A stretch of DNA of 64,000 bases from Escherichia coli (lineage in GTDB: Bacteria; Pseudomonadota; Gammaproteobacteria; Enterobacterales; Enterobacteriaceae), in assembly GCF_003019035.1 (NCBI RefSeq), contig NZ_CP027447.1; one strand, given 5' to 3'. This document shows positions 3,001 through 21,000 of the stretch, piece after piece. Position numbers: made by a program. Positions within the stretch are counted from its first letter, which is position 1, and each line of letters starts with the position of its first letter.

Positions 3001-6000
3001 TGTGGAAAAAACGAAAGCGCAATACTGGCCAACGCTCAGTATTCAGGGCGGCAAAACGCGCTACCAGACCAGTGACCGCTCGTATTGGGACGATCAGTTA
3101 CAACTGAACGTTAACGCGCCGCTGTATCAGGGCGGCGCAGTTTCAGCCCAGGTGCAACAGGCTGAAGGGCAACAAAAAATCTCTGCCTCGCAGGTCGAAC
3201 AGGCAAAACTGGATGTGCTGCAACGAGCGTCTGTGGCATATGCCAACTGGACAGGCGCACGGGGTCGCGAAGAAGCCGGTTTAGCACAATCCGAAAGTGC
3301 GCACAAAACGCGAGATGTGTACCAAAATGAATATAAATTGGGCAAACGCAGTCTGAATGATCTATTAACCGTCGAGCAAGATGTCTTTCAGGCGCAATCG
3401 GCTGAAATAAATGCCAATTATGATGGCTGGGTCGCCGCCGTAAATTATGCCGCTGCGGTGAATAACCTTATTCCATTAGCGGGAATTAAACAGGGCTTAT
3501 ACAACGACTTACCCGACTTGAAATAATCCTGCCATTATTAATAGTGGGGCGTTGTTAAGTGATTACCTTTGTCTTATTTAGATAAATGGACTCGCTAAGG
3601 ATATGCGCCATTTATCAGGAATGCCATTATGAGCCTGATTATTGATGTTATTTCGCGTAAAACATCCGTCAAACAAACGCTGATTAATCCTGGCGACGTC
3701 ACGGTTGTTATTTATGAGCCTTCCGTGGTGCAGGTTCATGCTCAGGCCTCTGCCGTTGCGCGTTACGTCCGTGAAGGAAATGACCTGCTGATCTATATGC
3801 AGGACGGCACGGTGATCCGCTGCAACGGTTATTTCCTGCAAGCGGCGAATACCGCTGAACAATCGGAACTGGTGTTTGCCGATGGACAACAGCTCACCCA
3901 CGTCACCTTTGCCGATACTGCTGCGGGTGGATTAGCCCCCGTAGAACTGACTGCCCAGACCACCGCGATTGAAAGCATTGCGCCATTTCTTGATACCGTT
4001 GCTCAGACCAGCACCTTCCCGTGGGGATGGCTGGCGGGGGCGGCGGTAGGCGGTGGCGCGCTTGGTGCACTGCTGGCAAGCGGTGGCGATGGCGACTCGA
4101 AAACAGAAGTGATTAATAACCCTCCGCCACCCGCTGAGCCTGGCAACGCCACACCATCATTTTTAGTTACCGATAATCAGGGCGATCAGCGCGGCATTCT
4201 CGCCACCAATGACATCACCGATGACACCACGCCAACCTTTAGCGGCAGCGGGCAGGCGGGGGCGACTATTCAGATTAAAGACAGTAACGGCAATACTATT
4301 GCCAGTACTCAGGTAGACAACAACGGTCAGTGGAGTGTCTCGTTACCCACGCAAAGTGCAGGTGAACATACCTGGTCAGTGGTGCAAATTGTCGGCAGTA
4401 CCATCACTGACGCCGGTTCGATAACGTTAACCATCGACAATAGTCAGGTCAGCGTGCAGGTTGCCACCACCGCAGGCGATAACATTATTAACGCCAGCGA
4501 ACAGGCCGCCGGGTTTACGTTTTCTGGCACCAGTAGCCATCTGGCGCAGGGAACAGAACTCACCGTTACGCTAAACGGCAAAACCTACACCACCAACGTA
4601 GGCGCTAACGGTGCCTGGAGCGTGCAGGTGCCGACCGCCGATGCACAGGCGTTAGGCGAAGGGAATCAAGCGGTGCTGGTCAGTGGGAAAGACGCCACAG
4701 GCAATACGGTCACTGGCGCGCAGCTGCTAACGGTCGATACCCAACCGCCAACGCTTGCCATCAACACCATCGCTCAGGACAACATCATCAGTGCTGCGGA
4801 ACATAACGTCGCGCTGGTACTGAGCGGCACGTCGAATGCAGAAGCGGGGCAAACCGTAACACTGACCGTCAACGGGAAAAGCCATACAGCAACCGTCGGT
4901 AGCGACGGAACCTGGCAAGTGACGCTGCCTGCCACGGAAGTCCAGGTACTGGCGGAGGGTAATTACGCTGTCAATGCCAGCGTCAGCGATCGGGCAGGGA
5001 ACAGCACCAGCCACAGCGCGAATTTCACGGTAGACACCTCAGCACCCGTGGTCAGTGTTAATACCGTGGCGGGCGACGATATTCTTAATAATGCCGAGCA
5101 GGCCGTCGCGCAGATCATCTCCGGACAAGTTAGCGGTGCTTCTCCTGGCGATACGGTAACGGTGAAATTGGGCACTCATGTCCTGACGGGCATCGTGCTG
5201 GCAGATGGCAGCTGGAATGTGGCACTGGACCCGGCGGTAACCCGCACGCTGGATCGCGGAGCCAATACGATTTTCGTCACCGTGACAGATGCTGCAGGAA
5301 ATACCGGCGCGGCGTCTCGGGCAATCACGCTGGTCGGTGTTTCTCCGTTGATCACCATTAACACCGTCTCCGGCGATGACATTATCAGTGGCGCAGAAAA
5401 AGGTGCGCCACTGACCCTTACCGGTAGCACTCAACAGGCCGAGACAGGACAAACCGTCACAGTAACCCTGGCTGGACAGAGTTTTACCACTACCGTACAG
5501 GCCGATGGCTCCTGGAGTCTGACGGTACCTGCCGCCGCGATGGGAAATCTGCCTGACGGCGCGGTGGCGATTACCGCTTCTGTGACGGATCTCAGCGGCA
5601 ATACCGGCAACACCTCCCGCACCATTACTGTCGACAGCCAGGCCCCGGCCTTAAGCATCGACTCGCTGACTGCCGATAACATCATCAACGCCGCCGAAAG
5701 CGGGCAGGATCTTCCCATCACCGGCACCACCGACGCCCAGCCGGGGCAGACGGTGACCGTTACGCTTAACGGGCAGACGTATCAGGGCATCGTGCAGTCA
5801 GACGGCACCTGGAGCGTGACCGTTCCCGCCGCCAACGTTGACGCACTGGCTGACGGCAATGCTACGGTCACCGCCAGCGTGAACGATGTCGCCGGTAACC
5901 CGAGCAGCGTTTCACGCGTGGCGCTGGTCGATGCCACGCCGCCGGGGGTAACCATTAATCCGGTGGCGACCGATAACGTCATCAATACGCCGGAACATGC

Positions 6001-18000: not shown

Positions 18001-21000
18001 CAGCACGTCAGGCGTCGAAGCGGGGCAGACCGTTACTATTACCTTTGGCGGCAAAACCTACACCACCACGGTGGCGGCTAACGGTAGCTGGAGCACTACC
18101 GTTCCGGCGGCGGATATGGCGACCCTGCGTGACGGCGATGCCAGCGCCCAGGTGCGGGTGACTAACGTCAATGGCAACAGCGCCACGGCAACACATGAAT
18201 ACAGCGTCGATAGCGCCGCGCCAACGGTGACCATCAACACCATTGCCAGCGATAACATCATCAACGCCAGCGAAGCGGCGGCGGGCGTAACGGTGTCCGG
18301 CACCAGCACCGCGGAAACCGGGCAGACGCTCACCGTTACGCTTAACGGCACTAACTACCAGACCACGGTGCAGGCAGACGGCAGTTGGAGCTTAACGCTG
18401 CCTGCCAGTGACCTAACCGCACTTGCCAATAACGGCTACACCCTGACCGCCACGGTCAGCGATCAGGCGGGTAACCCTGGCAGCGCCAGCAAAGGTGTGA
18501 CCGTCGATACCACCGCGCCCGTCATCAGCTTTAACACCGTGGCGGGCGACGATGTGATTAACAACGTTGAACACACTCAGGCGCAGATTATCAGCGGCAC
18601 CGCCACGGGTGCGGTGGCGGGCGACCGCCTGGTGGTGACCATCGCCGGGCAGCAGTATGTCACCAGCACCGATGCCAGCGGCAACTGGAGCGTTGGCGTG
18701 CCTGCCAGCGTGATTTCCGGCCTTGCGGACGGCACAGTGACTATCAGCGCCACCATCACCGATAGCGCAGGCAACAGCAGCACGCAGACGCACAATGTGC
18801 AGGTCAATACGGCGGCAGTGTCGCTCTCGGTCAGCACCATCAGCGGCGATAACCTTATTAATGCCGCCGAAGCAGGCAGTGCGCTGACCCTGAGCGGCAC
18901 CGGAACGAACTTTGCCGCAGGTACAGTAGTGACCGTGTTGCTTAACGGCAAAGGCTACAGCGCTACCATTCAGAACAACGGGAGCTGGAGCGTGAATGTG
19001 CCGGCGGCAGACGTTGCGGCGCTTGCCGATGGCACCAGCTATACGGTTAGCGCCTCCGCGCAGGACAGCGCCGGAAACAGCGCCACGGCCTCGCGCAGCG
19101 TGGCGGTGGATCTCACCGCGCCGGTTATCAGCATTAACACCGTTTCGACGGACGACCGACTCAACGCCGCCGAACAGCAGCAGCCGTTAACCCTTAACGG
19201 CTCGACCAGCGCGGAAGTAGGGCAGACGGTCACTGTCACCTTTGGCGGCAAAACTTACACTGCCACGGTGGCCGCCAATGGCACCTGGGCGCTTAACGTG
19301 CCTGCGGCGGATCTGGCCGCGCTCGGGCAGGGTGCGCAGACCATTACCGCCAGCGTGAACGATCGCGCCGGTAACCCCGGTCAAACCACGCACGCCCTGA
19401 CCGTCGATACCGTTGCGCCAACGGTCACCATCGCCACGGTGGCGGGTGACGATATTATCAACAACGCCGAGCAGCTTGCCGGGCAGACCATCAGCGGCAC
19501 CACCACCGCCGAAGTGGGCCAGACGGTGACCGTTACCTTTAACGGTCAGAGCTGGACCGCCACGGTTGGCAGCGGCGGAAGCTGGTCGGTGTTTATTCCG
19601 GCGCAGCAGTTTGCCGGATTAAGCGACGGCAGCTACACCATTAGCGCGACGGTTAGCGATCAGGCCGGAAACCCTGGTAGCGCCAGCCGTGGCGTGACAT
19701 TGAACGGCGACGTCCCCTCCGTCACCATCAACACCTTTGCGGGCGATGATGTGGTGAATGCAGCGGAACACGGCTCGTCTTTGGTGATCAGCGGCACCAC
19801 CACCGCGCCGGTCGGGCAGATGCTGACCCTGACCTTAAACGGTAAAACCTACACCACCACCGTGCAGACGGGCGGTAGCTGGAGCTACACCCTCGGCAGC
19901 GCCGATGTCACCGCGCTGGCGGACGGTAACGCCTACGTGATTAACGCCTCGGTGAGCAACGCTATCGGCAACACCGGCAGCAGCAATCACACCATTACTG
20001 TCGATCTCAGCGCCCCGGCGATGGGCATTAATATCGATTCCCTGCAAGCCGACACTGGCCTTAGCGCCAGTGACTTTATCACCAGCGTCAGCCCGGTGGT
20101 GGTCAACGGCTCGCTCACCGCCGCGCTTGCCAGTAACGAGACGGCGCAAATCAGTATCGACGGCGGCGTAACCTGGACCACGCTTACCGTTACCGGCACG
20201 ACCTGGCGCTATAACGACAGCCGCACGCTGACCGATGGCAGTTATCTCTATCAGGTGCGGGTGATTGACGCGGCGGGCAACGTCGGTGCCACCGACAGCC
20301 AGAATGTGGTGATCGACACCATCGCGCCAGATCCCGCGGTGAAAACCATCGCCATCAACGCGATCACCACCGATACTGGATTGATTACTAACGATTTTGT
20401 CACCAGCGACACGACGCTTGCGGTGAGCGGCACGCTGGGCGCGGCGCTTTCTGCCGGTGAGTTCGCGCAAATCAGCATTGATGGCGGCACCACCTGGCAG
20501 AATCTTTCGGTAAGCGGTTTGACCTGGACATATCTTGACGGGCGTACGCTGACTGACGGCAACTACAACTATCAGGTACGGGTGATCGACACCGCCGGAA
20601 ATATCGGCGCGACCGCCAGCCAGATAGTCACCGTGGATACCACCGCGCCGCTGGCGAGCAAAACCATCACCATTGCGGGCATCAGCGATGACACCGGGTT
20701 AAGCAGCAGCGATTTCGTTACTCGCGACACCACGCTGACCGTGCGCGGTACGCTCGGAGCGGCGCTTGCCGCCGATGAACGGGCGCAAATCAGCCTCGAC
20801 GGCGGCGTAACCTGGACCACCTTAACCGTTATCGGCACCAACTGGAGCTATGCCGATGGTCGCGCACTGACCGACGGCACCTGGAACTACACGGTGCGGG
20901 TGGTGGATCTGGCGGGGAACGTCGGGCAGACGGCGACGCAAAACGTGGTGGTCGATACCACCAGCCCGGAAGCGGCGAAAAGCATCACCATTACCGACAT

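What the first reader, a model, noticed from the sequence alone, without database searches (positions are those of the whole stretch)
5940..18540. About seven near-identical 1.8-kb super-repeats inside the giant gene: likely hotspot for length variation and assembly collapse
The same six-domain block recurs with a 1794-1800-bp period, always in frame. Repeats this long and this similar can recombine to expand or contract the stalk, and they exceed short-read lengths, so the copy number in this sequence may not be the true one. The many long minus-strand ORFs in this interval are a by-product of the repeat composition.
Basis: seen in the sequence. Interest (0 to 1): 0.5.

Follow-up and report, generated by a model that had tools for sequence, protein, structure and literature searches.

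The report
Diverged six-domain repeats in SiiEA adhesin
The 1.8-kb periodicity is real, but the seven copies are old and only about 71% identical; they form the calcium-stiffened stalk of a known E. coli giant adhesin (SiiEA, O-island 28), so the assembly is sound, and stalk length differs between strains only through occasional whole-domain deletions.

Summary
The periodicity, count, frame and coordinates hold. Seven in-frame units of 1794-1803 nt occupy window 5936-18511, each encoding six ~100-aa Ca2+-binding Ig-like domains (types A-F). "Near-identical" does not hold: units are 66-79% identical in DNA (mean 71%), third codon positions 53%, and the longest exact repeat in the whole gene is 30 nt. 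No 150-nt stretch has a second place that is at least 95% identical, so assembly collapse is not a concern. The public complete genome of the near-identical strain SCU-301 has the same copy number, as do most of the sampled complete E. coli genomes that carry the full-length gene.

The gene (3629-24406, 6925 aa) is siiEA, the BapA-related type I-secreted RTX adhesin of O-island 28, flanked by its TolC, ABC and HlyD genes. Each unit has a positional orthologue in other strains (91-98% identity, against 70-80% to paralogues). The same A-F cassette order occurs in Enterobacter hormaechei, so the repeats are ancient and not homogenised.

Length variation is real but modest. Eleven alleles ranged from 18360 to 21670 bp (45-55 stalk domains). 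Most resolved deletion breakpoints lie in 14-30-nt identical tracts at domain starts. One lies exactly at the window's longest exact repeat.

Known system; low novelty.

The parts
2171..3526 (+). TolC-family outer-membrane component of the dedicated type I secretion system
   Evidence: NCBIfam TIGR01844 type_I_sec_TolC, 412 bits. RefSeq annotates it as 'TolC family outer membrane protein'. It corresponds to Z0608/tolC28 of O-island 28 (PMC12758282).
3629..24406 (+). siiEA: intact 6925-aa BapA-related RTX adhesin gene
   Evidence: Single ORF. The N-terminus scores 509.9 bits on NCBIfam NF047714 adhesin_SiiEA, above the cutoff of 425. RefSeq annotates orthologues as siiEA in 959 of 5426 complete E. 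coli genomes.
3641..4024 (+). BapA prefix-like N-terminal domain (putative retention module), aa 5-132
   Evidence: Pfam PF22783 BapA_N, E=8.7e-19. NCBIfam NF033677.
4442..5935 (+). Stalk domains D1-D5: five Ca_tandemer/Big_13 domains that precede the regular super-repeats. D4 and D5 resemble types E and F.
   Evidence: Motif spacing of 99-100 aa. Type scores. Alleles 100248 and RMDEC465 carry three extra divergent B/C/D-like domains between D3 and D4.
5936..7738 (+). Super-repeat SR1 (domains 6-11, types A-F), 1803 nt
7739..9532 (+). Super-repeat SR2 (domains 12-17), 1794 nt
   Evidence: Closest pair is SR2/SR3 at 79.4% nt identity.
9533..11326 (+). Super-repeat SR3 (domains 18-23), 1794 nt
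11327..13126 (+). Super-repeat SR4 (domains 24-29), 1800 nt
   Evidence: Domain 25 is absent in O157:H7. Six domains (23F-28E, one super-repeat period spanning the end of SR3 and most of SR4) are absent in Z0117EC0056/KTa008.
13127..14920 (+). Super-repeat SR5 (domains 30-35), 1794 nt
14921..16717 (+). Super-repeat SR6 (domains 36-41), 1797 nt
16718..18511 (+). Super-repeat SR7 (domains 42-47), 1794 nt
14951..14980 (+). Left copy of the longest exact repeat in the gene (30 nt, encoding AGDDVINATE at a domain start). Natural deletion breakpoint.
   Evidence: 30 nt, partner at 17048, offset 2097. The breakpoint of the 2097-bp deletion in strain SCU-172 maps to exactly this tract. The same junction occurs in 5 genomes.
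17048..17077 (+). Right copy of the 30-nt exact repeat
18512..20008 (+). Stalk domains D48-D52: five more Ca_tandemer domains outside the regular period. D48 is A-like.
20024..22228 (+). Second repeat family: ~107-aa Big_13-like domains, with a 321/639-nt period clearest at 20049-21594
   Evidence: Self-BLASTN offsets 321, 639, 957 and 1275 at 64-71% identity. Pfam Big_13 hits. 315-321-nt indels in EDL933, SCU-172 and FXCREC043.
22430..23305 (+). FG-GAP/VCBS-like repeat region (candidate ligand-binding module), aa 6268-6559
   Evidence: Pfam PF13517 FG-GAP_3, three hits at E=1.9e-9 to 2.3e-7
23696..24034 (+). RTX nonapeptide Ca2+-binding repeats, aa ~6690-6802
   Evidence: Pfam PF00353 HemolysinCabind, E=2.1e-4 plus a weaker hit
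24086..24394 (+). C-terminal type I secretion target domain
   Evidence: NCBIfam TIGR03661 T1SS_VCA0849, 32.6 bits against a cutoff of 17.6
24410..26572 (+). Type I secretion ABC permease/ATPase (LssB type)
   Evidence: NCBIfam TIGR03375, 837 bits against a cutoff of 693
26569..27744 (+). HlyD-family periplasmic adaptor
   Evidence: NCBIfam TIGR01843, 327.7 bits

Best explanation
The interval is the main part of the extender (stalk) of SiiEA, the BapA-related giant RTX adhesin encoded on E. coli O-island 28.

How the adhesin works (inferred from homology and published work):
- It is exported C-terminus first by the TolC/ABC/HlyD type I system encoded on either side of it.
- It is probably held at the outer membrane by its N-terminal BapA-prefix module.
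- About 52 Ca2+-binding Ig-like domains fold outside the cell into a stiff rod. At 45-47 Å per domain this is roughly 240 nm in total, of which the seven super-repeats contribute about 190-200 nm.
- The rod carries the FG-GAP/RTX C-terminal region away from the cell surface.

How the stalk is built (shown here):
- An ancient six-domain cassette (types A-F) is repeated seven times.
- The cassette copies arose long ago (dS 0.75-1.34 between copies), have evolved independently under purifying selection (dN/dS about 0.2), and are not homogenised.
- As a result, domains more than about 70% identical are always five domains apart, and the DNA has no exact repeat longer than 30 nt. The gene therefore assembles uniquely and is genetically fairly stable.

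How length changes:
- Residual change happens by rare in-frame deletion, and more rarely duplication, of whole domains.
- These events use short identical tracts (14-30 nt) at the conserved domain-start motif (GDD-I/V-I/L-N-A-x-E). That they are the products of unequal recombination or slippage is inferred from junction anatomy.
- The outcome is lineage-specific alleles with 45-55 stalk domains.
For: Identity of the gene and system:
- NF047714 SiiEA scores above its cutoff, with Ca_tandemer repeats, a T1SS C-terminal domain, and TolC, LssB-type ABC and HlyD neighbours.
- Pfam finds BapA_N, Big_13, FG-GAP_3 and HemolysinCabind.
- RefSeq annotates siiEA at this locus in 959 genomes.
- Niu et al. 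2025 report that O-island 28 is needed for adherence and colonisation and responds to RstA and Ca2+ (PMC12758282).

Stalk role:
- One unit matches the MpIBP region II tetra-tandemer 4P99 at E=1.2e-46, and also 5IRB and 6XI3.
- Region II is a Ca2+-rigidified rod of about 190 Å per four domains (PMC4083281).

Anatomy:
- Unit coordinates and identities and the strict lag-6 periodicity.

Age and independence of the copies:
- dS is 0.75-1.34 and dN/dS is 0.20 between copies.
- Each unit has a positional orthologue at 91-98% identity, against 70-80% to paralogues, in seven other alleles.
- Enterobacter hormaechei has the same 1797-nt period and the same A-F order.

Stability and assembly:
- Longest exact repeat 30 nt. 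No 150-nt window has a second place at or above 95% identity.
- Same length in the public SCU-301 record.
- Span of exactly 20778 bp in about half of the evenly sampled carriers.

Deletion mechanism:
- An 1800-bp deletion between otherwise 100%-identical alleles sits at a 29-nt identical tract.
- A 2097-bp deletion sits exactly at the window's 30-nt repeat; a 2700-bp deletion at a 19-nt tract; a 300-bp deletion at about 14 nt.
- Domain maps of nine alleles.
Against: - No experiment here shows secretion, Ca2+ binding or stalk geometry for this protein. All of that rests on homology and on the O157:H7 paper, where the gene is split by a stop codon.
- The retention function of the N-terminal module is inferred from a family name only.
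- The recombination pathway (RecA-dependent or slippage) cannot be told from junction sequences.
- The 315/321-nt indels in the C-terminal repeat family show only 0-4 nt of shared sequence, so not all events use identical tracts.
- Allele length frequencies come from a 60-row sample and three junction searches, not a full census.
Confidence: 0.85

Rival explanations
1. The seven units are near-identical long repeats, so the locus is a hotspot for homologous recombination and short-read assembly collapse, and the copy number in this sequence may be wrong.
For: [quoted passage not shown]
- Length-variant siiEA alleles do exist.
- The public SCU-301 record carries 16 point or 1-nt errors inside this gene, which hints that polishing was imperfect there.
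Against: - Units are 66-79% identical, the longest exact match is 30 nt, and no 150-nt window has a second place at or above 95% identity.
- Experimenters deliberately recode such repeats to about 70-75% DNA identity to stop recombination in E. coli (PMC4083281; PMC7493085), and the natural gene is already there.
- Copy number is the same in the public SCU-301 record and in most sampled full-length alleles.
- Length is constant within clones.
Confidence: 0.05
2. The six-domain period is maintained because it is a functional or structural unit. Possibilities are a roughly 27-nm structural period of the rod, type-specific Ca2+ or ligand sites, or a spacing rule that keeps similar domains apart so that they do not misfold into each other during vectorial folding after secretion. 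On this reading it is more than a frozen record of cassette duplications.
For: - The cyclic order A-F is conserved between E. coli and Enterobacter hormaechei.
- Same-type domains are 66-80% identical while neighbours average 44%, range 32-58%.
- dN/dS is about 0.2 between copies and about 0.1 between orthologues.
- One natural deletion removes exactly one period (1800 bp).
Against: - Common descent plus purifying selection on each Ig fold gives the same pattern without any hexad function.
- Natural intact alleles have lost 1, 6, 7 or 9 domains (300, 1800, 2097 and 2700 nt), which breaks the A-F order without breaking the reading frame. The register is therefore not strictly required.
- No structural data exist.
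Confidence: 0.15
3. The similarity between units is kept up by ongoing gene conversion (concerted evolution) among the super-repeats.
For: One patch of about 150 nt (window 8809-8968 in SR2) where three other alleles look more like the window's SR3 than its SR2.
Against: - In 27 unit comparisons only that one weak patch was found, and it involves the two most similar units.
- Orthologous units are 91-98% identical, against 70-80% for paralogues, in all alleles.
- Third-position identity between copies is near saturation at 53%.
Confidence: 0.03

Closest known systems
E. coli SiiEA / O-island 28 RTX adhesin (Z0609+Z0615, 'RtxA28/RtxB28') with its T1SS (Z0608, Z0634, Z0635)
   Same: It is the same locus and the same gene, between ybaT and cueR. 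The N-terminus passes the curated SiiEA model, and the alleles are 92-94% identical to EDL933. The published role is early epithelial adherence and colonisation, activated by RstA and Ca2+ (PMC12758282).
   Different: In EDL933 the gene has a TAG at codon 1462 and lacks domain 25 and one 107-aa domain (20160 bp). It was therefore described as two RTX proteins. In the window it is one intact 6925-aa ORF. The six-domain super-repeat was not mentioned in the parts of that paper that I searched.
Salmonella enterica BapA and SiiE (giant T1SS adhesins made of BIg domains)
   Same: BapA prefix-like N-terminus, tens of Ca2+-binding ~100-aa Ig-like domains, a C-terminal T1SS signal and an adjacent dedicated T1SS. 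SiiE has 53 BIg domains with Ca2+ sites (PMC5466336 abstract).
   Different: I made no direct sequence comparison with Salmonella BapA or SiiE. NCBI names this protein 'BapA-related', not BapA. Whether BapA shares the six-domain cassette was not tested.
Marinomonas primoryensis ice-binding adhesin MpIBP, region II extender (PDB 4P99)
   Same: Best solved homologue of one super-repeat (E=1.2e-46). Both have tandem ~100-aa Ca2+-stiffened Ig-like domains that serve as an extender.
   Different: Here neighbouring domains are 54% identical in DNA and same-type domains 72%.
Multi-domain super-repeats in eukaryotic modular proteins (e.g. titin); comparison from my own knowledge, not tested here
   Same: Ig-type domains arranged in a fixed multi-domain pattern that is itself repeated, so that similar domains are spaced apart.
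   Different: Unrelated proteins. In titin the period is reported to match a partner filament, whereas no periodic partner is known here.

Membership tests
BapA-related adhesin SiiEA (NCBIfam NF047714) | N-terminal ~229 aa score above the curated cutoff | tested here: met
   509.9 bits against a cutoff of 425, covering 1-229 of 229
BapA-related adhesin SiiEA (NCBIfam NF047714) | Same chromosomal locus as annotated siiEA genes (between ybaT/TolC and the T1SS ABC/HlyD/cueR genes) | tested here: met
Biofilm-associated RTX adhesins secreted by T1SS (LapA/MpIBP/SiiE type) | Adjacent dedicated TolC-like, ABC and HlyD-like genes | tested here: met
   TIGR01844, TIGR03375 and TIGR01843, all above their cutoffs
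Biofilm-associated RTX adhesins secreted by T1SS (LapA/MpIBP/SiiE type) | C-terminal RTX nonapeptide repeats and an uncleaved T1SS signal domain | tested here: met
   HemolysinCabind E=2.1e-4. TIGR03661 scores 32.6 bits against a cutoff of 17.6.
Biofilm-associated RTX adhesins secreted by T1SS (LapA/MpIBP/SiiE type) | Central extender of tandem Ca2+-binding beta-sandwich domains | tested here: met
   52 Ca_tandemer (NF033510) / Big_13 domains. Homology to 4P99, 5IRB and 6XI3. Ca2+ binding itself was not tested.
Biofilm-associated RTX adhesins secreted by T1SS (LapA/MpIBP/SiiE type) | N-terminal retention module that plugs the outer-membrane channel | tested here: inconclusive
   BapA_N/prefix-like domain present. 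Its function is not testable with these tools.
LapA-type adhesins released by LapG/LapD | LapG protease and LapD receptor genes, and a LapG cleavage site | tested here: inconclusive
   A TAAG sequence occurs at aa 97-100. None of the annotated neighbours over about 60 kb is named as a LapG-type protease or a LapD-type receptor. The rest of the genome was not searched.
Identical-repeat adhesin genes prone to assembly collapse and frequent recombination (MpIBP RII type) | Repeats identical or nearly so at the DNA level over more than a read length | tested here: not met
   66-79% nt identity, longest exact repeat 30 nt, best 150-nt second match 92.7%

The most novel reading that the evidence does not exclude
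The six-domain A-F cassette may be a selected structural unit of the stalk, conserved since before Escherichia and Enterobacter diverged. It could be a roughly 27-nm period, or a spacing rule that keeps domains more than 70% identical five positions apart so that they fold correctly after type I secretion. The synonymous divergence between copies would then also protect a 12.6-kb repeat array from recombinational loss.
Probability: 0.15. Interest if true: 0.45.

Novelty: already known. Interest (0 to 1): 0.22.

Why it matters
- For annotation: the 6925-aa ORF and its seven 1.8-kb units can be trusted as assembled. The overlapping minus-strand ORFs should not be called as genes.
- For the biology of O-island 28: the adhesin recently shown to drive early EHEC adherence is intact and longer in many non-O157 strains. 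O157:H7 carries a stop-split, shorter allele.
- Stalk length varies from 45 to 55 domains between lineages, which could alter the adhesin's reach past LPS or capsule.
- The mapped breakpoints give a concrete picture of how such stalks shrink: short identical tracts at the conserved domain start. They also show why strong synonymous divergence keeps a 12.6-kb repeat array stable.
- None of this changes current understanding of RTX adhesins.

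Tried and rejected
- Tandem Repeats Finder found nothing. Its longest period is 500, and neighbouring domains are only about 54% identical. The periodicity had to be shown by self-BLASTN and autocorrelation.
- My first two regular expressions for domain starts were wrong. The third found all 52 domains.
- A protein search with the N-terminal 280 aa returned only 20 short fragments. For the two I checked, the short protein is a stop-truncated N-terminal piece followed by further gene fragments, not a contig end, so they say nothing about assembly breaks. The Apirhabdus hit is a short remnant.
- The idea that all differences from the public SCU-301 record lie in the repeat gene was rejected. 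The downstream 40 kb holds 39 more differences, mostly in an IS621 copy.
- The dN/dS figures for FXCREC043 are an artefact of a 3-nt offset and were discarded.
- Junction-spanning queries could not count deletion alleles by coverage, because paralogous similarity lets megablast run across the junction. Only the identity bands are usable.
- Independent recurrence of the 2097-bp deletion in two backgrounds could not be established.
- The gene-conversion scan gave one weak patch only.

Full report
**Observation.** The window has one 6925-aa ORF at 3629-24406. Tandem Repeats Finder reports nothing because its period limit is 500. Self-BLASTN of the gene gives unbroken diagonals at offsets 1803, 3597, 5391, 7191, 8985 and 10782, spanning roughly 5350-19269. 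In-frame autocorrelation peaks at 1794 (44.6% matching bases, against about 26% for out-of-frame offsets). A conserved motif (D-[DNE]-x-[IVLR]-[NS]-x-x-E) marks 52 domain starts spaced 99-102 aa apart. From domain 6 to domain 47 the domains follow a strict six-type cycle, A to F.

This gives seven units:

| Unit | Window coordinates | Length (nt) |
|---|---|---|
| SR1 | 5936-7738 | 1803 |
| SR2 | 7739-9532 | 1794 |
| SR3 | 9533-11326 | 1794 |
| SR4 | 11327-13126 | 1800 |
| SR5 | 13127-14920 | 1794 |
| SR6 | 14921-16717 | 1797 |
| SR7 | 16718-18511 | 1794 |

All lengths are multiples of three. Domain identity is 72%, 71% and 69% at lags 6, 12 and 18, and 44-47% at every other lag.

**What is wrong in the observation.** The units are not near-identical.
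- Pairwise DNA identity is 65.9-79.4% (mean 71.3%) and protein identity is 64.4-82.6%. Third codon positions are only 52.9% identical.
- Between copies, dS is 0.75-1.34 and dN/dS is about 0.20. These are old duplications under purifying selection.
- The longest exact repeat anywhere in the gene is 30 nt.
- No 150-nt window has a second location that is at least 95% identical. The best is 92.7%, and the median in the repeat region is 78%.

**What it is.**
- The N-terminus passes NCBI's curated model for 'BapA-related adhesin SiiEA' (509.9 bits, cutoff 425). The body is made of Ca_tandemer/Big_13 domains. The C-terminus has FG-GAP-like repeats, RTX nonapeptide repeats and a type I secretion target domain. 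The flanking genes are a TolC-family protein, an LssB-type ABC exporter and an HlyD adaptor.
- The window is E. coli. It is 100% identical over 2171-6000 and 99.9% over the gene to strain SCU-301, and 959 of 5426 complete E. coli genomes carry the locus, always on the chromosome.
- The locus is O-island 28 of EHEC. Niu et al. 2025 report that it is needed for early adherence and gut colonisation and is activated by RstA and Ca2+ (PMC12758282).
- In EDL933 the gene carries a TAG at codon 1462. That is why the paper speaks of two RTX proteins, Z0609 and Z0615.
- One super-repeat matches the Ca2+-rigidified extender of the Marinomonas ice-binding adhesin (4P99, E=1.2e-46) and two other RTX-adhesin extenders.
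- At about 45-47 Å per domain (PMC4083281), the seven units would contribute about 190-200 nm of a stalk of about 240 nm. This figure is an inference.

**Age of the repeats.**
- Every unit in the window has a positional orthologue in seven other E. coli alleles at 91-98% identity, while paralogous units score 70-80%. There is no concerted evolution.
- A scan for paralogue-like patches found a single weak one of 150 nt.
- The Enterobacter hormaechei orthologue is found through its N-terminus (57% identity), has a TolC gene upstream, and is split by a stop. It has its strongest self-match at 1797 nt, and its domains fall into the same A-F types in the same order.
- The cassette therefore predates the split of the two genera.
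- Alleles 100248 and RMDEC465 carry three extra, divergent B/C/D-like domains between D3 and D4. D3-D5 of the window thus look like the remnant of an older eighth cassette.

**Assembly concern.**
- With no exact repeat above 30 nt and no 150-nt near-duplicate, collapse is not expected.
- The public complete SCU-301 record has the gene at 20777 bp against 20778 bp here. The two differ by 9 substitutions and 7 one-base indels, all between 11694 and 19286. Eleven of the 16 lie at CCWGG sites and three lie in homopolymers. That pattern suggests uncorrected long-read errors in the public record (my reading from own knowledge), and RefSeq consequently splits the gene into five CDSs there.
- In an evenly spaced sample of the 959 carriers, about half have a span of exactly 20778 bp although they are only about 94% identical.
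- The general warning that adhesin repeat numbers are under-counted applies to genes with identical repeats (PMC7493085). It does not apply to this one.

**Length variation.** It exists. Annotated gene lengths:

| Length (bp) | Strain(s) |
|---|---|
| 18360 | SCU-172 |
| 18675 | RMDEC465 |
| 18682 | WP4-S18-ESBL-07 |
| 18975 | Z0117EC0056, KTa008 |
| 20160/20161 | O157:H7 |
| 20460 | FXCREC043 |
| 20778 | window and most others |
| 20961 | XJ6-3 |
| 21670 | 100248 |

Domain maps show 45-55 stalk domains. Losses are of 1 domain (O157:H7, domain 25), 6 domains (Z0117EC0056), 7 domains (SCU-172, WP4) and 1+9 domains (RMDEC465).

Breakpoints lie in short identical tracts at the conserved domain start:
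- FXCREC043 and Z0117EC0056 are 100% identical on both sides of an 1800-bp deletion whose junction is a 29-nt shared tract.
- The 2097-bp deletion of SCU-172 falls exactly in the window's longest exact repeat (14951-14980 and 17048-17077).
- A 2700-bp deletion uses a 19-nt tract, and the O157 300-bp deletion uses about 14 nt.

Frequencies from junction-specific searches:
- Up to 86 records match the 1800-bp junction at 99% identity or better.
- Five genomes carry the 2097-bp junction.
- 337 records match the O157-type junction at 99% or better.

Within clones the length is constant (O157:H7 rows; identical alleles in two strains). It works through tiny identical tracts between any two domains, not through long near-identical 1.8-kb homology, and the rate looks low. 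From my own knowledge, about 29% divergence is expected to lower homologous recombination in E. coli by orders of magnitude, and the tracts sit near the minimal efficient length of about 23-27 bp. Experimenters recode such repeats to about 70-75% DNA identity precisely to stop recombination.

**Minus-strand ORFs.** Nineteen minus-strand ORFs of at least 100 aa overlap the gene. Fifteen are in the codon-aligned antisense frame, where a stop needs a sense TTA, CTA or TCA codon. Only 75 of 6926 codons are one of these, giving a stop density of 0.011, against 0.024 and 0.083 in the other two antisense frames.

**Verdict.** This is a real, correctly located periodic structure in a known gene of a known family. 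The 'near-identical, assembly-collapse' framing is wrong, the 'length polymorphism by recombination' idea is partly right, and the minus-strand ORF remark is right. The six-domain cassette and its conservation in Enterobacter are a modest descriptive addition. I found no paper that describes it: searches cover open-access literature only. A functional meaning for the hexad register remains possible but untested.

Noticed in passing
window 11694-19286 vs NZ_CP051751.1 (L001): The window and the public SCU-301 record differ at 16 positions inside siiEA (9 substitutions, 7 one-base indels). Eleven are at CCWGG (Dcm) sites and three are in homopolymers. The public version breaks the gene into five annotated CDSs, while the window's version is one intact ORF. 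The pattern looks like unpolished long-read errors in the public record.
   Followed up: partly
window 39483-40281 (IS621/IS110-family transposase ORF 39340-40320): Of 39 further differences between the window and the SCU-301 record in the downstream 40 kb, 30 cluster in this insertion sequence. The window is therefore not simply that record. It may be another assembly or a very close relative, or a different IS copy may have been used.
   Followed up: partly
window 20049-21594 (within 20024-22228): A second repeat family inside the same gene: ~107-aa Ig-like domains with a 321/639-nt period and 64-71% identity. It is also length-polymorphic (-321 nt in EDL933 and SCU-172, -315 nt in FXCREC043), with little or no shared sequence at the junctions.
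   Followed up: partly
L003 (EDL933) gene codon 1462; L006 (XJ6-3) codon 5828 and gene nt ~4110-4480: O157:H7 EDL933 has a TAG stop in domain 12, which explains the 'two RTX proteins' of the O-island 28 paper. XJ6-3 has a TAG at codon 5828 and a perfect 183-nt tandem duplication inside domain 12. Several other alleles are annotated as frameshifted, so pseudogenisation (or sequencing error) is common at this locus.
   Followed up: partly
window 5936-18511 vs orthologues; also 24410-26572: Between E. coli alleles, synonymous divergence in the repeat region is high (dS 0.17-0.27) compared with the first 2.3 kb of the same gene (0.03-0.09). The ABC exporter gene is also only 94.7% identical to EDL933. 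The island is unusually diverged for one species, and the cause is unexplained: old allelic lineages or import from relatives are possibilities.
   Followed up: no
window 3917-3928 (aa 97-100): The sequence TAAG, which resembles the LapG cleavage motif of LapA-type adhesins (from my own knowledge), lies just inside the BapA prefix-like domain. None of the annotated neighbours over about 60 kb is named as a LapG-type protease or a LapD-type receptor.
   Followed up: no
L008 (100248) and L005 (RMDEC465), between orthologues of D3 and D4; window ~5307-5351: These alleles carry about 891-894 nt more, encoding three divergent B/C/D-like domains. This makes D3-D5 part of an older, degenerate eighth cassette, and the Enterobacter orthologue has the same extra domains. 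The window's allele appears to have lost them.
   Followed up: partly
window 28828-29844 (-): A YadA-family trimeric autotransporter adhesin gene lies about 1 kb downstream of the T1SS genes, after cueR and two small ORFs. Two unrelated adhesin systems therefore sit side by side.
   Followed up: no
window 8809-8968 (SR2): In this 160-nt patch the SR2 of three other alleles is closer to the window's SR3 (88-90%) than to its SR2 (84-86%). It is a possible small gene-conversion tract, or just local conservation between the two most similar units.
   Followed up: partly
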